Under the pieces are notes generated by a model. It was not told where the DNA came from. It made no database searches and saw only the letters and a program-made list of their open reading frames with translations. The translations under genes were made by a program, and so were the position numbers. From a virus, in IMG/VR virus record IMGVR_UViG_3300010354_000044, positions 96,001 through 160,000 of that record: a stretch of DNA of 64,000 nt. One strand, written 5' to 3'. Below, in pieces: positions 16,866 through 26,439 of this stretch; the first letter of the stretch is position 1; each line of letters opens with the position of its first letter.

Positions 16866-19061
16866 ATGGCTACCATCAACCTGCTACCTAATTACCTTTA
16901 CCTCGCGTCAGGGCCCTCGGCGTCGGGTAAGAGCACAGCACTTAAGGGCCTGCCTGCAGGGGTAGTGGTGTCCTCAGACAGCTTGAGAACCCAAATATTC
17001 GGTCTTGAAGCTGATACTGTAGAGGGTAACCTACTAGCCCCTCCTAGCCTAAGACCCCGCCCTGTCAACGATAGCTTTATCTTTGACACCATGAGACAGA
17101 TCGTGGAGGCCCGTCTTAAAGCAGGACTGACAACAGTCGTAGACGCAACTTTGTTAACCGACCGTGACCGCAAGCAGTTCGTGGATATAGCTGCTAGCTA
17201 CAACGTCCCTGTTCAGATTTTGATCTGGGATGTTCCCGCCGAGCAGCTGACTACTAGAGATGCAGATCGTCAGTTCCGGGTAGGGGCTGAGGTTATCCAG
17301 CGACAACTGGAGCGCTTTGAGCGTACATCCCAGTACTCCTATATTGTAGACGACTACTTTGAGCTTGAAATAGCTCACCTAACAGTAGCTAGTAGCGTAG
17401 AACTGGATTTCGTGGGTGACATCCACGGCTGCTACGACCAGTTAATAGAACTGATTGAAAAGCTAGGCTATGTTATTGGCGAGGACGGTATTGCTAGGTA
17501 TGCTGGTAATGAGCCCCGGCGTCTGTGCTTTTTGGGCGACTATGTAGACCGAGGGCCCAAGTCCTTAGAGGTACTCAAATTCATTTACCGGAATACGCCT
17601 ACGCATTGGGCGTTGCTGGGGAACCATGATAGTAACCTTCTCAAGGGGTTGCTAGGAAAACCCGTAACCTCCAAGGCCACACAGGAGACCCTCCATGAAG
17701 TGATGGTCGCCAAGGCGGAGAAGTGGGTTACAGAGCTACTGACCTCACTGCCTCGTTATCTAACCTGGCGGAATGTCGTTATTTGCCATGCCGACATCCA
17801 GAGGCTTAACTTACCTCAGGAGACAACTCAGTGCGTTTACGGTTGTAGTAAACTGAACAGGCCTATAAACGCCGATGAAATCTGGAGTAAGACTGAGAAG
17901 CGCCTGCTTATCCGCGGTCACTTTACTCCTGACCACGAGTACGATAACGTCATTACCCTGGACGGTAATCCGGGCTATGGCGGTACTATTAAAGCAGGGC
18001 GTTTTGCTGTTGCTCAAGTTGCGGGTCGGAAGCATGATAACTTCTTAATCCAGCAATGGATTGAATTCTCATTAGGGCCTACGGAAGATTATGAAGAACG
18101 CAAGAAGACTGTAATAGGTTTTCGCCTTGCCGCTATGCCAAAAGAGTTGGTTAGCACGGCTACATCGCCTTGCGGCCACCTCAAGCTGTTTAAATACACG
18201 CCTAATGCCTTTAGACAGTCCTTTAAATCTGAAGGGCCTTGGCTGGAGTACCCTGACCTTAAGTACGCCCGAGGCCTTGTCGTAGGCCTTAACCACCAAC
18301 CGGTGAACACGGTCTTTCCTAAAATTCCTAGTTACACCGAAGGAATTGATCCGAGCAAGCAGGTGATTGCCGCGACAAAGTTGAACGGCTTTCTCCTAGC
18401 TACATTCAGACATCCTTACAAAGAGGATGTGGTCTTCACTACTACCGGGTCGTTTGACTCTGAGTACGTAAAGATGGGCCGTGCATTGTTCTACAAGCAC
18501 GCAAAACAGTCTCGGCAGCAGCTCCTAAACAGCCCGGGATTGACATTCTTGTGGGAGGTTATAGACCCTAATAAAGACCAAAATGTCCACCCTATTGCCT
18601 CGTCCGCAGGCATCTACCTAATTGCTGTAGGGCAAAATGGGGTAATCCTCCCCGAGGAGGAGATGCAAAGCTACGCCGGCAACTTGAATGTCAACTGTGC
18701 CAGTCATGTACAGACTGACTTCGGGTCAGTCCTAGAAATGGCCCGCACCAGCGACGGCGAGGGCTATATGATTAGGGACTTGGAAGGTAACTACCTTGCA
18801 AAGCTCAAATCACCGTTTTACCTGACTGTCAAGAAGTTTATGCGTCTATCGCCAAAGGCGGGCGCACAGCTCTTTAACGACCCTATTAATTTCAACTTTG
18901 AGTATATTTGGCAGCAGTGCATGGACAACCCTTATGCCAACGACCTTTATACCCGGCAGACAGCTATCGCCGAAGCTATCCGAACACACTTTTCCTGTGA
19001 AACTTGGCAACAAGCAGATAGTTTAACCCGTAGAGAATTTCTCTATCGCATGTTAAGCTAA
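16866..19061 (+). CDS. polynucleotide kinase / metallophosphoesterase / RNA ligase (RNA repair fusion)
   Basis: GPSASGKS P-loop and DAT; GDIHG, GDYVDRG, GNHD; ligase motifs KLNG, FLWE, EGYM, KLKS; AAGGA SD before ATG 16866. Confidence 0.88.
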   Translation: MATINLLPNYLYLASGPSASGKSTALKGLPAGVVVSSDSLRTQIFGLEADTVEGNLLAPPSLRPRPVNDSFIFDTMRQIVEARLKAGLTTVVDATLLTDRDRKQFVDIAASYNVPVQILIWDVPAEQLTTRDADRQFRVGAEVIQRQLERFERTSQYSYIVDDYFELEIAHLTVASSVELDFVGDIHGCYDQLIELIEKLGYVIGEDGIARYAGNEPRRLCFLGDYVDRGPKSLEVLKFIYRNTPTHWALLGNHDSNLLKGLLGKPVTSKATQETLHEVMVAKAEKWVTELLTSLPRYLTWRNVVICHADIQRLNLPQETTQCVYGCSKLNRPINADEIWSKTEKRLLIRGHFTPDHEYDNVITLDGNPGYGGTIKAGRFAVAQVAGRKHDNFLIQQWIEFSLGPTEDYEERKKTVIGFRLAAMPKELVSTATSPCGHLKLFKYTPNAFRQSFKSEGPWLEYPDLKYARGLVVGLNHQPVNTVFPKIPSYTEGIDPSKQVIAATKLNGFLLATFRHPYKEDVVFTTTGSFDSEYVKMGRALFYKHAKQSRQQLLNSPGLTFLWEVIDPNKDQNVHPIASSAGIYLIAVGQNGVILPEEEMQSYAGNLNVNCASHVQTDFGSVLEMARTSDGEGYMIRDLEGNYLAKLKSPFYLTVKKFMRLSPKAGAQLFNDPINFNFEYIWQQCMDNPYANDLYTRQTAIAEAIRTHFSCETWQQADSLTRREFLYRMLS

Positions 19062-24105: not shown

Positions 24106-24134
24106 TTGCAATTTTGCAAGTTATGTAGTAGTAT
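24106..24134 (+). promoter_or_regulatory. sigma70-type promoter for the RNA array operon
   Basis: TTGCAA-N17-TAGTAT; predicted +1 at about 24141-24142, the first base of RNA A. Confidence 0.65.
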
Positions 24135-24141
24135 GCTAAAT

Positions 24142-24193
24142 GGGCATAGCAACTTCCTTAACTTTGAAATTTGGCCATACCTAGTTGCCGCCC
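24142..24193 (+). ncRNA. structured small RNA A (Y-RNA-like)
   Basis: GGGC-ATA-GCAACT-[TCCTT...CT]-AGTTGC-C-GCCC. Confidence 0.75.
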
Positions 24194-24205
24194 TTTAAAC
24201 ATTTA

Positions 24206-24258
24206 ACCCGCATAAAGCATTCCTTTAAAACTATTTGGGATAACTATGCTTCGCGGGT
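24206..24258 (+). ncRNA. structured small RNA B (Y-RNA-like)
   Basis: ACCCGC-ATA-AAGCAT-[TCCTT...CT]-ATGCTT-C-GCGGGT; compensatory changes relative to A and C. Confidence 0.75.
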
Positions 24259-24276
24259 GGCTACTACCCGACTAGA

Positions 24277-24350
24277 CGGGGCATAGCGCAGTTTGGTAGC
24301 GCGCCTGCTTTGGGAGCAGGATGCCGCAGGTTCAAATCCTGCTGTCCCGA
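24277..24350 (+). tRNA. trnP-TGG: tRNA-Pro(TGG)
   Basis: CGGGGCA/TGTCCCG acceptor, CCTGC-TTTGGGA-GCAGG anticodon arm, GTTCAAATC. Confidence 0.93.
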
Positions 24351-24353
24351 TTA

Positions 24354-24409
24354 AGTCGCATAGCAACTTCCTTTTCCGTAATTCCTACCTACCCTTAGTT
24401 GCCGCGACT
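24354..24409 (+). ncRNA. structured small RNA C (Y-RNA-like)
   Basis: AGTCGC-ATA-GCAACT-[TCCTT...TT]-AGTTGC-C-GCGACT. Confidence 0.75.
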
Positions 24410-24432
24410 ACCATTATTAAGGAGGCCCGATT

Positions 24433-26265
24433 ATGACTAAGCTAGATACCCGTTTAATCAGGTGCGCCTTGGACTACTTCAAGTGCGTTCCGTTGTCAGA
24501 TGACAATGAAGTCGCTGAAGAGCCCGTACTTATTAAGAACCGCGGTATTGTGCTGCACCCTACTGCGGTGTACGCGGAAAAGGTAGTAGAAAATTGGCTG
24601 AGCAACTCCCCTAACGGGGAACAGATGAATAAGACCTTCTATACCTCCTGGCGGGAGTGCCTGGCGGTCTCAACCAAGCAGCATATGCTCAACCAATTTG
24701 TACACTACATTACCGCGTATCTTAACGACCGGGGGCTTAGTGATGAGATTATTGTTCCCCGCAATGAACAAGACATTGCTGCAGATCTGCGTCTGCAGGT
24801 TATTAGAGGGGTATCACTTGACGAATTGGTAATTAGGGCCCACAAGACCCTCTGTCAGAACATCGCCCATCCTCAAGAGGTTATAGAAGACCTGTTATAT
24901 ATTCTTGAGTGCGGCGAATTTGCCTGGAATGAGGAGGAATTGGCCAAGGTCACTAACCGAGAAGCTCGGTATCAAATCTTTAAGCTGCTGGGTCTATACC
25001 CTAGTGAAGCAGAGGAGCTAACCAAGTACCTCTTTTTCCTAGCCACCAGCGATTCCTTAATTATCGGCAACAAGCAGTATATCCAAAGCCTAAGGACATC
25101 TAATTACGTCTTGAAGCTAACCCAAGAGCAGATTGACTTAGTAGCCGAGTGCTTCCATCGGTTCAAGAACCTATGGCTGGCGCTTAAGAAAGCTTCCAGC
25201 GCAAATCCCAAAGTGGTTAATACCATATCGCGGAGAGCTAAAGAGCTGCATATACCTAAAAAGCTGCCGGCTATCAAAACTGTGACTTCGGGCACGTTCT
25301 CTAGTAGTGAATTGGAGGACCTAGGTCGTCGGTCTTCTATCAAAGACCTTGTTACAGCTATTAATGCACTGAAGCTGTACCAGGATACAGACAGACGGTT
25401 CTTCCGTGTCCGAAATGGTAGAGGTTGGGCTACTAAGGCTATGGAAGGGGTGTTAGGTATGCCAGTTAACGACCGGAAGGCTCAATGGTGTGCCTATGAG
25501 AAGACACTGCTTGCAATTCTTAAGGAGAAAGTTGCTGCAAAGGGTTTGCGGGTGTACTGTCCTGATTACGTGGACTATAGCTTCCCGACCAGTCGGAAGC
25601 AGATGGTTGGTAACATCCCTGTAGGAACTAAGGTGAATGTGCCCAAAGATTCTAGAAATTCCATTGTAGGTATCTATTGGGAAAATCAAGAAGATGCCCG
25701 AGTGGACCTAGACCTTACCGCTCATCATATGAGTGGTGAAGTAGTAGGGTGGTATACCCGTCATAGAAGTGCGCAAGTGCCCCTAGTTTATTCTGGAGAC
25801 ATTACCAGCGGGCCTGCGGCGGAGTATGTTTACCGCAGCCCTTCTTGTACCGATCCTTTCCTATTAGCAGTAACCCACTTTGAAGGACCTTTGGAAAACC
25901 TGCGGTTCCATTTGATCATTGGGCATGAGCTAGAGGAAGCTAAACATAGCATTAATCCAAATAATGTTTTATTTAGCCTGCCGCTGACTATGGCAAGTAA
26001 ACAAAGCTGCTTAGGGCTACTAACTCAGTCAGCAGAAGGTCTAACCTTCTTTGTCAACAACGTAGGGATTGGAAACCAGCGGGTAACCCGAGCGTGCGAA
26101 AAGATAGAAACTATTTTGATGCATGCATTAGCTAGTTCTAATACTGGCCTTAAGTTGCGTGACTTAAAGGATGTAATTGAGTTTGTAGACGAACCAGATT
26201 CAAACAGTATAAACCTATCCCCGAGCGAATTGATGGTTGACTCCTTCAACTGCTTTGTGGATTAA
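24433..26265 (+). CDS. large helical protein with C-terminal TerD-like domain (putative TROVE/Ro-TerD type)
   Basis: AAGGAGG SD; VGIYWEN...RVDLDL...YSGDITS..AAEYV TerD-like motifs; all-alpha N-terminal two thirds. Confidence 0.65.
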   Translation: MTKLDTRLIRCALDYFKCVPLSDDNEVAEEPVLIKNRGIVLHPTAVYAEKVVENWLSNSPNGEQMNKTFYTSWRECLAVSTKQHMLNQFVHYITAYLNDRGLSDEIIVPRNEQDIAADLRLQVIRGVSLDELVIRAHKTLCQNIAHPQEVIEDLLYILECGEFAWNEEELAKVTNREARYQIFKLLGLYPSEAEELTKYLFFLATSDSLIIGNKQYIQSLRTSNYVLKLTQEQIDLVAECFHRFKNLWLALKKASSANPKVVNTISRRAKELHIPKKLPAIKTVTSGTFSSSELEDLGRRSSIKDLVTAINALKLYQDTDRRFFRVRNGRGWATKAMEGVLGMPVNDRKAQWCAYEKTLLAILKEKVAAKGLRVYCPDYVDYSFPTSRKQMVGNIPVGTKVNVPKDSRNSIVGIYWENQEDARVDLDLTAHHMSGEVVGWYTRHRSAQVPLVYSGDITSGPAAEYVYRSPSCTDPFLLAVTHFEGPLENLRFHLIIGHELEEAKHSINPNNVLFSLPLTMASKQSCLGLLTQSAEGLTFFVNNVGIGNQRVTRACEKIETILMHALASSNTGLKLRDLKDVIEFVDEPDSNSINLSPSELMVDSFNCFVD

Positions 26266-26300
26266 GGCTTAGCGCGGTCGCTACACGGACAAGCGCTAAG

Positions 26301-26335
26301 AAGGCGGGGGTTTCCCTCCTTACCCCGCCTTTTTT
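26301..26335 (+). terminator. intrinsic terminator closing the RNA-array operon
   Basis: AAGGCGGGG...CCCCGCCTT followed by a T run. Confidence 0.75.
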
Positions 26336-26439
26336 AATACGAAACATGAGCCGAGGCCTCCTCGGCTTGTGTCTTTTTATCGCCATTTCCTAACTAATAT
26401 GTTATATTAAAAAATACAGCAGTCTAAGCTGCCCTCGAC

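What the first reader, a model, noticed from the sequence alone, without database searches (positions are those of the whole stretch)
24106..26335. Operon of three covarying small RNAs, tRNA-Pro and a TROVE/Ro-TerD-like protein: candidate phage Y-RNA-like ribonucleoprotein system
Seen: three 52-56-nt units (24142-24193, 24206-24258, 24354-24409) share one architecture. Each has an outer stem ending in GC, an asymmetric internal loop 5'-AUA / 3'-C, a 6-bp inner stem, and a 25-28-nt loop starting UCCUU. The stems differ but still pair: the outer stems are GGGC/GCCC, ACCCGC/GCGGGU and AGUCGC/GCGACU; the inner stems are GCAACU/AGUUGC versus AAGCAU/AUGCUU. This is real covariation around an invariant bulge, the signature of a protein-binding RNA motif. 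A TTGCAA-17-TAGTAT promoter points at the first base of unit A, a tRNA-Pro lies between B and C, and a 610-aa helical + TerD-like gene and a terminator complete the unit. Established: Ro60/TROVE proteins bind Y RNAs at a bulged helix, and bacterial Y RNAs are encoded next to the Ro gene and tRNAs, often in RNA-repair contexts. Inference: these are the cognate RNAs of this protein, a new Y-like RNA class. RNase P/Z processing of the tRNA could release them, and they may act with the phage PNK-ligase at 16866 to protect or repair RNA. Alternatively they are autoregulatory binding sites in the leader.
Basis: partly seen in the sequence, partly recalled or inferred. Interest (0 to 1): 0.9.

Follow-up and report, generated by a model that had tools for sequence, protein, structure and literature searches.

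The report
Phage handle RNAs with TerD-domain partner
Three small folded RNAs in front of an uncharacterised 610-residue phage gene belong to a widespread, uncatalogued RNA family that travels with this one protein family, so the pair is probably an undescribed RNA-protein particle built like Ro60 with its Y RNAs, though the protein is not a detectable Ro60 relative.

Summary
Units at 24142-24193, 24206-24258 and 24354-24409 share one architecture: outer stem, 5'-AUA/3'-C internal loop, 6-bp inner stem, loop starting UCCU. A covariance model built only from other loci finds exactly these three in the window (30.5, 27.1 and 20.6 bits; next best 9.2).

The 610-aa protein belongs to a large, almost wholly viral family (1162 clusters at 50% identity) with no Pfam domain. 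The same RNA "handle" lies on the gene's strand, usually directly upstream, in nearly every homologous locus examined. These include S-CRM01, S-CBWM1, the gut phage Phass-1 and a Leptolyngbya chromosome.

An RNA-first scan recovered the protein in 35 of 60 loci with a paired handle and in 0 of 20 without.

In relatives the loop often carries tRNA-like modules with sub-threshold Rfam YrlA matches, yet none of six carrier genomes encodes a TROVE protein.

The C-terminal domain has a TerD fold (Z 11.7). The N-terminal helical domain has no recognised fold, and profile comparison with phage Ro60 is negative.

Best reading: a Ro60/Y-RNA-like particle with a non-homologous protein. Binding and function are inferred. 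This scan has reached the same reading on other genomes. I found no publication describing it.

The parts
24106..24134 (+). Promoter-like site TTGCAA-17 nt-TAGTAT. It would place the transcript start at about 24141-24142, the first base of unit A.
   Evidence: Read from the sequence. It matches 8 of 12 consensus positions and was not called by the scan. In relatives a -10-like box also sits just before the first unit: Phass-1 has TTGACA-17-TATAAT at L003 5990-6018, and L008 and L009 show similar boxes.
24142..24193 (+). Handle RNA unit A: GGGC / AUA / GCAACU / 28-nt loop starting UCCUU / AGUUGC / C / GCCC
   Evidence: Independent model R2 scores it 27.1 bits, E 8e-6.
24206..24258 (+). Handle RNA unit B: ACCCGC / AUA / AAGCAU / 25-nt loop / AUGCUU / C / GCGGGU. 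The loop holds UUUGGGA (24234-40), identical to the tRNA-Pro anticodon loop.
   Evidence: R2 scores it 30.5 bits, E 6e-7.
24277..24350 (+). tRNA-Pro(UGG), 18 nt after unit B and 3 nt before unit C
   Evidence: ARAGORN; Rfam tRNA at 69.6 bits.
24354..24409 (+). Handle RNA unit C: AGUCGC / AUA / GCAACU / 28-nt loop / AGUUGC / C / GCGACU. It ends 9 nt before the Shine-Dalgarno sequence and 23 nt before the ATG.
   Evidence: R2 with filters off scores it 20.6 bits, E 1.6e-4 in 10 kb.
24433..26265 (+). 610-aa partner protein: N-terminal helical domain of about 400 residues with no recognised fold, then a TerD-fold beta-sandwich (residues 406-565, nt 25648-26127), then C-terminal helices.
   Evidence: ORF. 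The family has 1162 clusters. The model has pLDDT 91.5. TerD fold: Foldseek probability 1.0 and VIA-align Z 11.7 and 10.5. No Pfam family.
26303..26335 (+). Intrinsic-terminator-like hairpin (7-bp G+C stem, 13-nt loop, six T). A second hairpin follows at 26344-26372.
   Evidence: Read from the sequence. The second hairpin was called by the scan.
16866..19061 (+). Context only: a Pnkp-like RNA end-healing gene (P-loop kinase plus metallophosphoesterase, with an unassigned C-terminal region of about 370 aa), 5 kb upstream.
   Evidence: Pfam AAA_33 at 1.9e-23 and Metallophos at 9.7e-12.

Best explanation
The three hairpins are small non-coding "handle" RNAs, the cognate partners of the 610-aa protein encoded just downstream.

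They are most likely transcribed from the promoter at about 24106-24134 as one precursor with tRNA-Pro and the gene. tRNA maturation would cut them apart: RNase P at the tRNA 5' end and 3' processing at its other end. These steps are inferred.

The protein is inferred to dock on the invariant part of the RNA: the two-helix stem with its A-N-A / C internal loop, the closing U-A pair and the loop nucleotides UCCU...U. The variable loop is free to carry a second module. In this window the loops are short (25-28 nt) and carry none. In relatives they carry tRNA-like domains or whole tRNA bodies.

The particle is therefore a functional analogue of Ro60 with its Y RNAs, acting on tRNA or RNA metabolism during infection. 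It uses a non-homologous protein: a new helical domain plus a TerD-fold domain.

Unit C lies directly in front of the ribosome-binding site, so it probably also lets the protein repress its own translation.

Shown here: the RNA family, its covariation, its co-occurrence with the gene, the TerD fold, and the absence of TROVE. Inferred: direct binding, processing and biological role.
For: 1. Family membership without circularity. Model R2 contains no window sequence and finds units B, A and C at 30.5, 27.1 and 20.6 bits, with the next best hit at 9.2.

2. Protein-first association. Across 20 loci that hold a homologue, model R1 gives 57 hits at E<1e-3. All are on the gene's strand, and most lie within about 400 nt upstream or just downstream of the gene.

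3. RNA-first association. A sequence-only pattern scan of IMG/VR listed 80 loci. In 60 the inner stem pairs, and 35 of those hold the protein on the same strand. None of the 20 loci with unpaired hits holds it. Two complete jumbo-phage records with units but no adjacent gene encode the protein elsewhere, each with one unit 24-41 nt before its start.

4. Covariation. 99% of stem cells are paired, 9 of 10 pairs show changes on both sides, and 92 cells have double changes against 21.6 in shuffles. Registers slid by 1-3 columns pair only 31-53%. A5, A7, U13-A52, UCCU, the last loop U and the bulged C are invariant, and the scan did not require all of these.

5. The RNA is the only conserved neighbour. 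No protein-coding neighbour recurs across distantly related loci. About half of the loci sit in tRNA clusters on the same strand.

6. Not only a leader. In Phass-1 six units form their own promoter-driven array 1.2 kb downstream of the gene, followed directly by a tmRNA gene. Units also occur after the gene's stop codon and between tRNA genes.

7. Y-RNA-like modules. Units in S-CRM01, L067 and L086 match Rfam YrlA at 30-45 bits (E down to 6.6e-7, below the gathering score) and fold as handle plus T arm, closed acceptor stem and D arm. In at least 12 loci a permuted handle replaces the anticodon loop of a tRNA body.

8. No Ro60 present. No TROVE protein is found in six carrier genomes, and no handle is found beside four canonical phage Ro60 genes.

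9. Autoregulation. In 15 of 17 loci the last unit ends 6-41 nt before the start codon.

10. Repair context. A Pnk gene follows the homologue in L024, and a Pnkp-like gene lies 5 kb away in the window.
Against: - No direct evidence exists that the RNAs accumulate or that the protein binds RNA. No transcript data were available.
- The helical domain matches no known RNA-binding fold.
- TerD domains are known as Ca2+-binding proteins of stress-response systems, not as RNA binders.
- Only 3 of 310 stem cells are G-U pairs, which is unusually few for an RNA helix.
- The window's own loops carry no tRNA-like module.
- The window's handles deviate from the family consensus at the pair before the closing U-A: C-G or A-U in place of G-C.
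- The promoter is a weak consensus match.
- 25 of the 60 paired-handle loci showed no gene in the DNA fetched. Some of these hits lie at locus edges or in fragments.
- One 99%-complete 37-kb record has a handle-like hit but no protein.
Confidence: 0.65

Rival explanations
1. The hairpins are purely cis-acting leader elements: translational operators or attenuators through which the protein, or a host factor, controls expression of the 610-aa gene. They are not stable trans-acting RNAs.
For: The array lies between the promoter and the gene. In 15 of 17 loci the last unit ends 6-41 nt before the start codon, inside the ribosome's footprint. Even jumbo phages with dispersed units keep one directly before the gene.
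Against: Many units are not in the leader. Phass-1 has a separate promoter-driven six-unit array ahead of a tmRNA gene. Other units lie after the stop codon (L001 4830, L005 2133 and 2246, L012 5827 and 5887, L024 1847), between tRNA genes 2.4 kb away (L002 477), or tens to hundreds of kb away in jumbo phages. Loops that carry tRNA-like domains have no role in an operator.
Confidence: 0.12
2. The protein is an RNA-processing enzyme and the handle is its recognition and cleavage or joining site. It might excise the handle from tRNA bodies that carry it in the anticodon position, or release units from precursors. End-healing and ligase enzymes would finish the job. The free hairpins would then be products or regulators rather than scaffolds.
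For: Permuted handles sit exactly where the anticodon loop should be in at least 12 tRNA-like genes (Rfam tRNA hits of 102-114 nt). Pnk or Pnkp genes lie next to or near the module. N175, E177, N263 and R327 are invariant in the helical domain.
Against: No nuclease or ligase fold or motif was detected. The stand-alone hairpins of this window have nothing to excise. The invariant acidic residues lie mostly in the TerD metal-site region.
Confidence: 0.12
3. The hairpins work independently of the protein, as transcript-processing or stabilising elements of phage tRNA operons or as decoys for host factors. They co-occur with the gene only because both ride on one mobile cassette.
For: The module has no conserved protein neighbours and sits in variable contexts. 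The Leptolyngbya copy lies next to transposases and an integrase fragment. Homing-endonuclease genes are annotated in the same S-CBWM1 tRNA region.
Against: Co-occurrence holds at genome level even when units and gene are far apart. It also holds across phages of cyanobacteria, the gut and other habitats whose proteins share only about 22-35% identity. Invariant single-stranded nucleotides point to one specific binding partner.
Confidence: 0.07
4. The elements act at the DNA level, as single-strand DNA hairpins recognised for recombination, replication or mobility (like REP/RAYT or IS200/IS605 ends). The protein would be the DNA-handling enzyme.
For: G-T (G-U) pairs are very rare, 3 of 310 cells. 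The elements are strand-specific, bulged hairpins with conserved flanking nucleotides.
Against: Every unit has the orientation of the surrounding tRNA and protein genes, and the first unit starts at a promoter-like -10 box. Loops fold as tRNA-like domains with T- and D-arm sequence signatures that matter only in RNA. No transposase, nuclease or recombinase similarity was found.
Confidence: 0.03

Closest known systems
Ro60 (Rsr; TROVE HEAT-repeat ring + vWA) with Y RNAs, especially bacterial and phage YrlA (Rfam RF02553; PMC4201824) and Thermus phage phiLo Ro60 with Yrl1/Yrl2 (PMC12135203)
   Same: - A protein of about 550-610 aa, with a large helical domain and a C-terminal metal-binding-type domain, is encoded right beside one to several small RNAs.
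- The RNAs are modular: a conserved bulged stem formed by the two ends, plus a variable module that is often a tRNA-like domain with T arm, D arm and a closed acceptor stem.
- The RNAs lie upstream of the gene, as in phiLo.
- The module neighbours tRNA and RNA-repair genes.
   Different: - The protein has no detectable TROVE homology.
- Its C-terminal domain is TerD, not vWA.
- The handle lacks GNCGAAN0-1G. Its own invariants are the A-N-A / C loop, the U-A closing pair and UCCU.
- The carrier genomes encode no Ro60.
- Copy number reaches 9 or more per genome.
- Permuted versions sit in the anticodon position of tRNA bodies.
TerD-family proteins (Klebsiella TerD 2kxt; Streptomyces SCO6318 2qz7, 3ibz, 2qng)
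   Same: Residues 406-565 adopt the TerD beta-sandwich: Z 11.7 and 10.5, Foldseek probability 1.0. Acidic positions are conserved: D425, D427, D456 and E464 are invariant.
   Different: TerD proteins are stand-alone domains of about 190 aa from tellurite and stress-resistance operons, with no known RNA partner. Here the domain is fused to a 400-aa helical domain and linked to an RNA family. Pfam TerD does not reach E<=1.
Stable small RNAs in the phage T4 tRNA gene cluster (species 1 and 2, also called RNA C and D). This comparison is from my own knowledge and was not checked here.
   Same: These are non-tRNA stable RNAs encoded inside a phage tRNA cluster, co-transcribed with tRNAs and released by tRNA-processing enzymes. 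Their function is unknown.
   Different: No sequence or structural relation was tested, and no partner protein is known for the T4 RNAs.
Type III toxin-antitoxin loci (ToxIN and similar), where an RNA repeat array lies upstream of the protein it binds
   Same: The layout is promoter, array of structured RNA units, then the gene for the protein presumed to bind them.
   Different: Type III antitoxins are near-identical tandem repeats of about 36 nt, cut by a small (about 170 aa) ToxN/AbiQ endoribonuclease. Here the units differ in sequence and covary, their loops vary from 15 to over 100 nt, and the protein is 600 aa with no ToxN-like fold.
MXAN_6230/SCO0854 family RING-domain proteins (NCBIfam NF041916)
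   Same: Weak local matches (E 4e-5 to 2e-3) cover the end of the helical domain and the start of the TerD domain. The ESM Atlas lists Prok-RING_4 clusters as the nearest named look-alikes, at scores of 0.82-0.87.
   Different: The scores are far below the family cut-off (about 20 bits against 600). The protein has no RING domain, and those proteins are actinobacterial or myxobacterial cellular proteins. This is a lead, not a membership.

Membership tests
Ro60 / TROVE protein family | Sequence match to the TROVE domain (Pfam PF05731) | tested here: not met
   No Pfam family at E<=1 for the protein, and none in 10 homologues. A six-frame TROVE search of the whole 172-kb record gave 0 hits, while the positive controls and phage Bxz1 did match.
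Ro60 / TROVE protein family | Profile-level homology to known Ro60 proteins | tested here: not met
   hhalign of the 83-sequence family alignment gave probability 0.15% against Bxz1 Ro60 and 0.13% against an alignment of four phage Ro60 proteins. An HMM search against all PDB sequences gave 0 hits at E<=1, although Ro60 structures are in the PDB.
Ro60 / TROVE protein family | HEAT-repeat ring fold of the N-terminal domain | tested here: inconclusive
   No Ro60 chain is among the Foldseek or VIA-align matches of the full-length model. The best helical matches have Z<8 and cover only residues 277-372.
Ro60 / TROVE protein family | C-terminal vWA domain with MIDAS site | tested here: not met
   The C-terminal domain is a TerD beta-sandwich: Z 11.7 to 2qz7_B, 10.5 to 2kxt, Foldseek probability 1.0.
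Y RNA / YrlA (Rfam RF02553, RF00019) | Match to the Rfam covariance model at gathering score | tested here: not met
   The window units give no Y RNA or YrlA hit even at E<=10. Related long-loop units reach 30.6-45.5 bits against a gathering score of 69.
Y RNA / YrlA (Rfam RF02553, RF00019) | Ro60-binding motif GNCGAAN0-1G (bacteria) or GGUCCGA (vertebrates) in the 5' strand of the stem | tested here: not met
   The motif is defined in PMC4201824. The handle consensus is RGRY-A-N-A-NNNNGU-UCCU, with no CGAA.
Y RNA / YrlA (Rfam RF02553, RF00019) | tRNA-like domain (T arm, D arm, closed acceptor stem) in the loop | tested here: not met
   The window loops are 25-28 nt and lack such a domain. The feature is met in some relatives: L001 2618-2735, L067 1470-1700 and L086 3299-3737.
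Y RNA / YrlA (Rfam RF02553, RF00019) | Encoded beside a Ro60 gene | tested here: not met
   No TROVE gene is found in this virus record or in five other carrier genomes.
TerD domain (PF02342 fold family) | TerD beta-sandwich fold | tested here: met
   Residues 406-565: VIA-align Z 11.7 (rmsd 3.2 over 143 residues) and 10.5; Foldseek E 2e-6 to 1e-4 at probability 1.0 to 2qng, 3ibz, 2kxt and 2qz7. The model has pLDDT 91.5.
TerD domain (PF02342 fold family) | Sequence match to Pfam TerD | tested here: not met
   No hit at E<=1. A look-alike cluster in the ESM Atlas carries PF02342 in only 22% of its members.
Handle-RNA family defined here (models R1 and R2) | Detected by a covariance model built without the window's own sequences | tested here: met
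   R2 scores 30.5, 27.1 and 20.6 bits, with the next best hit in 10 kb at 9.2 bits.
Handle-RNA family defined here (models R1 and R2) | Same-strand neighbourhood of a homologue of the roughly 600-aa helical + TerD protein | tested here: met
   The units lie 24-291 nt upstream of the ORF at 24433. This layout is the rule in 20 homologue loci and a cyanobacterial chromosome.
Type III toxin-antitoxin (ToxIN-like) | Near-identical tandem RNA repeats and a ToxN/AbiQ-fold endoribonuclease | tested here: not met
   The units differ in stem sequence and loop. There is no PADLOC hit and no ToxN-like fold match.

The most novel reading that the evidence does not exclude
The protein-handle pair is a programmable display platform for tRNA mimics. 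The protein grips the invariant handle. The phage grafts onto that handle short loops, anticodon-loop look-alikes, permuted tRNA-like domains or whole anticodon-less tRNA bodies. The resulting particles would either soak up host tRNA-targeting defence nucleases or bring the phage's own end-healing and ligase enzymes to broken tRNAs. That would make it a Ro60-independent, phage-specific system for protecting or repairing tRNA, evolved convergently with Ro60/YrlA.
Probability: 0.25. Interest if true: 0.92.

Novelty: new variant of a known kind. Interest (0 to 1): 0.85.

Why it matters
If the inference holds, large phages of very different hosts share a two-part RNA-protein module that no catalogue lists. 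Hosts and habitats include cyanobacteria and the human gut; fold matches to Campylobacter and Lactobacillus phage proteins suggest, untested, an even wider range. The module is absent from Rfam, and the protein has no Pfam, PHROG function or NCBIfam name.

It would be a second, independently evolved solution to the design known from Ro60 and Y RNAs: a protein handle plus a tRNA-like effector module. It would also give a function to a protein family of over 1000 clusters and to many unexplained gaps in phage tRNA arrays.

It is directly testable in cultured systems: S-CRM01 on Synechococcus LC16 and S-CBWM1 on CBW1002. It may bear on how phages defend their translation apparatus against tRNA-targeting host immunity. 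It would also assign a TerD-fold domain to an RNA-linked context for the first time.

Tried and rejected
- Known RNA families. The Rfam scan of the region at E<=10 gave only the tRNA and chance-level hits.
- K-turn, bulge-helix-bulge and ribozyme readings. I rejected these by inspection. The positions after the 3-nt bulge are Watson-Crick pairs that covary, not tandem G-A pairs, and the two bulges face each other.
- Word-indexed protein search. It found only the protein itself, so the exhaustive phmmer search was needed.
- Single-sequence AlphaFold model. It was unusable at pLDDT 34.
- The search for related loci with the 83-sequence alignment. It failed because no stretch was conserved enough.
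- Scan of species-representative bacterial genomes with the 11-sequence alignment. It found nothing. Cellular spread is therefore known here only from the Leptolyngbya copy.
- Bacterial genome handle. My attempt to get one to test the RtcB-operon context noted earlier in this scan failed, because that genome is not held. The lead remains untested by me.
- Botulinum-toxin, RyR and similar Foldseek rows. They have probability <0.5, TM about 0.1 and rmsd about 30 Å, so they are noise.
- PADLOC, PHROGs and NCBIfam. They gave no usable family.
- ESM Atlas search of the N-terminal 400 residues. It gave no named family.
- Type III toxin-antitoxin reading. Rejected; see Membership tests.
- Literature searches. 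They found no description of this RNA or protein family.
- Complex prediction. Not used, because it takes no RNA and a dimer of the protein exceeds its size limit.


Full report
**1.

The sequence contains three units at 24142-24193 (A), 24206-24258 (B) and 24354-24409 (C). Each has:
- an outer stem (GGGC/GCCC, ACCCGC/GCGGGU, AGUCGC/GCGACU);
- an internal loop of AUA on the 5' strand facing a single C on the 3' strand;
- a 6-bp inner stem (GCAACU/AGUUGC in A and C, AAGCAU/AUGCUU in B);
- a 25-28-nt loop starting UCCUU.

RNAfold gives exactly this fold as the minimum-energy structure of each unit. tRNA-Pro(UGG) sits at 24277-24350, 18 nt after B and 3 nt before C.

The 610-aa ORF starts at 24433, behind AAGGAGG. 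The proposed promoter (24106-24134) is present but matches only 8 of 12 consensus positions, so the scan did not call it. A terminator hairpin with six T lies at 26303-26335, and a second hairpin follows at 26344-26372.

**2. The units belong to a large RNA family tied to one protein family**

tblastn found homologues of the ORF in Synechococcus phages S-CRM01 and S-CBWM1 and in the gut phage Phass-1. All three copies lie in or beside tRNA genes.

A simple pattern, then a structural scan, found the same motif on the gene's strand in all three phages:
- six units in S-CRM01, five directly upstream of the gene and one directly downstream;
- two units in S-CBWM1;
- six units in Phass-1.

An exhaustive phmmer search showed a family of 1162 clusters at 50% identity, 1026 of them below 1e-10. 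By ESM Atlas taxa the family is almost entirely viral.

Among 17 further IMG/VR loci that hold a homologue, model R1 found units in all but three (L014, L018, L020). Across the 20 homologue loci it gave 57 hits at E<1e-3, every one on the gene's strand. In the whole 172-kb virus record of this window it finds only the three units of the finding.

To remove circularity I built a second model (R2) from 31 units of other phages and a cyanobacterium. It recovers units B, A and C at 30.5, 27.1 and 20.6 bits, with the next best hit in 10 kb at 9.2 bits.

**3. Covariation and invariants**

On 31 units, 99% of stem cells pair and 9 of 10 pairs change on both sides. There are 92 double-change cells against 21.6 in shuffles, and registers slid by 1-3 columns pair only 31-53%.

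The units were collected by a scan that demanded pairing, so the percentage paired is partly built in. The stronger evidence is independent of pairing:
- the strand and position bias;
- the RNA-first test in section 4;
- invariant nucleotides that the scan did not ask for, namely the G before the closing U-A pair (28 of 31 units), U after UCC, the last loop U, and C after the 3' A.

The consensus is RGRY / A-N-A / NNNNGU / UCCU(A/U)... ...U / ACNNNN / C / RYYY. The window's units deviate at one pair: C-G or A-U where most units have G-C.

G-U pairs are oddly rare, 3 of 310 cells. I cannot explain this.

**4. Reciprocal (RNA-first) test**

I scanned IMG/VR with a sequence-only pattern that does not require pairing. 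It returned at least 119 stretches, of which 80 were listed.
- In 60 of the 80 loci the four free inner-stem positions pair with at most one mismatch.
- 35 of those 60 hold the protein (HMM E values of 1e-39 to 1e-225), always on the same strand and nearly always adjacent.
- None of the 20 loci with only unpaired hits holds it.

I then searched five whole records whose paired handle had no gene nearby:
- Two complete jumbo phages (424 and 411 kb) encode the protein elsewhere, each with one unit 24-41 nt before its start.
- Two are fragments.
- One 99%-complete 37-kb record has no protein.

No protein-coding neighbour is conserved across distantly related loci, so the RNA is the gene's only constant companion.

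A cellular copy exists in the [Leptolyngbya] sp. PCC 7376 chromosome. Four units lie directly upstream of it, and transposases and an integrase fragment lie beside it.

**5. What the protein is**

With an 83-sequence alignment AlphaFold2 gives a confident model: pLDDT 91.5, pTM 0.89.

Residues 406-565 are a TerD beta-sandwich. Foldseek gives probability 1.0 to 2qng, 3ibz, 2kxt and 2qz7. VIA-align gives Z 11.7 and 10.5. The invariant acidic residues D425, D427, D456 and E464 lie in this domain.

The first 400 or so residues are helical and match nothing convincingly; the best Z is below 8 and covers only residues 277-372.

The TROVE idea fails every test I could run:
- no Pfam hit;
- no PDB sequence hit with the family profile;
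- hhalign probability 0.15% to Bxz1 Ro60 and 0.13% to a four-phage Ro60 alignment;
- no Ro60 chain among the fold matches.

The fold question for the helical domain alone stays formally open.

Full-length structural relatives exist in a Siphoviridae metagenome phage, Lactobacillus phage LpeD and Campylobacter phages IBB35 and CP21. There is a weak local match to the bacterial RING_SCO0854 family.

**6. Why the Y-RNA analogy is nevertheless apt**

In relatives the loop of the handle is a cargo site.
- *YrlA-like cargo.* S-CRM01 unit 2618-2735 matches Rfam YrlA over the full model at 35.9 bits. L067 and L086 units reach 30.6-45.5 bits, all below the gathering score of 69 but with E down to 6.6e-7. 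The L067 unit folds as handle plus T arm, closed acceptor stem and D arm.
- *Whole-cloverleaf cargo.* L055 3605-3720 is a handle enclosing a whole cloverleaf with a 4-nt "anticodon loop".
- *Permuted handles.* In at least 12 loci the handle is permuted. Its outer stem is capped by a 3-6-nt loop, and its inner stem opens into the anticodon stem of a tRNA body. This gives the same three-dimensional object with the RNA ends at the acceptor stem.

This is the YrlA design described in PMC4201824. Three things differ:
- The handle lacks the Ro60-binding GNCGAAN0-1G motif.
- None of six carrier genomes encodes a TROVE protein.
- No handle lies beside four canonical phage Ro60 genes.

The known phage Ro60 locus of Thermus phage phiLo has the same gene order, with two Y-like RNAs upstream of the protein gene (PMC12135203).

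**7. How it most likely works**

*Shown:*
- a conserved RNA handle with variable cargo;
- obligate co-occurrence with a helical + TerD protein;
- co-orientation with tRNA genes, and twice with a tmRNA gene (Phass-1 and L009);
- a promoter-like -10 box just before the first unit in several loci.

*Inferred:*
- The window's promoter drives one precursor: A, B, tRNA-Pro, C and the mRNA.
- tRNA processing releases A-B and C.
- The protein docks on the handle's invariant bulges and UCCU.
- The particle acts on tRNA or RNA metabolism, as Ro60/Y RNA does.

In 15 of 17 loci the last unit ends 6-41 nt before the start codon; in the window the gap is 23 nt, or 9 nt to the Shine-Dalgarno sequence. The bound protein should therefore also block its own ribosome-binding site, so autoregulation is a likely secondary role.

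Links to RNA repair are contextual only. A Pnkp-like kinase plus metallophosphatase gene lies 5 kb upstream in the window, and a T4-type Pnk gene directly follows the homologue in L024.

**8. Rivals**
- *Purely cis-regulatory leader.* This is contradicted by units far from the gene, after its stop codon, in a separate promoter-driven array and with tRNA-like cargo.
- *Enzyme reading.* The protein might cut or join RNA at the handle, for example excising handles from anticodon positions. I cannot exclude this, but no catalytic fold was found.
- *Hitch-hiking on one cassette.* This is contradicted by co-occurrence at genome level across very distant phages.
- *DNA-level hairpins.* This is contradicted by transcription-consistent orientation and tRNA-like loops.

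**9. Novelty and earlier notes**

Rfam, Pfam, PHROGs, NCBIfam and PADLOC do not name either partner. Five literature searches found no description.

This scan's own notes show that other agents reached the same reading on at least eight other genomes. I reached mine before reading them and re-tested the parts I cite. I could not test their report of a bacterial RtcB-operon context. I borrowed the word "handle" from those notes.

I rate the finding a new variant of a known kind: a Ro60/Y-RNA-like particle with a different protein and a different RNA docking motif. The existence of the pair is close to certain. Direct binding is likely, at about 0.65-0.7. The biological role is open.

Noticed in passing
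L003 6632-7070 (Phage Phass-1, OQ749652, reverse strand of the record): A tmRNA gene (Rfam RF00023, 77.9 bits, E 6e-29) lies 9 nt after the six-unit handle array. It is not annotated in the GenBank record and ARAGORN did not call it. L009 3530-3806 also has a tmRNA just downstream of the homologue.
   Followed up: partly
L044 7721-7748; L055 3772-3799 and 8885-8913; L078 6235-6263; L099 8768-8795; L107 2371-2399; L125 6356-6384; L147 1853-1881, and others: These are circularly permuted handles. The outer stem is closed by a 3-6-nt loop, and the inner stem opens into the anticodon stem of an otherwise complete tRNA body. Rfam calls them tRNAs of 102-114 nt. They look like anticodon-less tRNAs carrying the protein's docking site, or tRNAs with a handle-shaped intron.
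   Followed up: partly
L151 8600-10755 ([Leptolyngbya] sp. PCC 7376 chromosome, CP003946): This is a cellular copy of the module: four handle units directly upstream of the homologue WP_015132806. It is flanked by IS630-, IS4- and IS1-type transposase genes and an integrase fragment, so it probably arrived on a mobile element.
   Followed up: partly
window 24234-24240 and 24309-24315: The loop of unit B contains UUUGGGA flanked by UA/UA. This is identical to the 7-nt anticodon loop of the neighbouring tRNA-Pro. My rough chance estimate is under 1-2%. The S-CRM01 unit at L001 4830-4879 has UUUGGAU, again with UGG. This may hint at anticodon-loop mimicry.
   Followed up: partly
window 16866-19061: A 731-aa ORF has an N-terminal P-loop kinase (AAA_33) and a central calcineurin-like phosphoesterase, the domain order of bacterial Pnkp. 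The C-terminal region of about 370 aa, the presumed ligase, has no Pfam hit at E<0.001.
   Followed up: partly
L024 1847-3052: In a 3.1-kb metagenome contig the closest homologue (P0002) is followed by one handle unit and then a T4-type polynucleotide kinase-phosphatase gene (HAD_PNKP + AAA_33).
   Followed up: partly
alignment A3 (31 units from the window and L001-L019): Only 3 of 310 stem cells are G-U pairs, far fewer than usual for structured RNAs. The reason is unknown. The protein may demand strict helix geometry.
   Followed up: no
L002 5210-5386 (S-CBWM1): Two genes annotated in the record as tRNA pseudogenes are called by ARAGORN and Rfam as tRNA-Trp(CCA) and tRNA-Ser(GGA), at 53.7 and 45.5 bits.
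   Followed up: no
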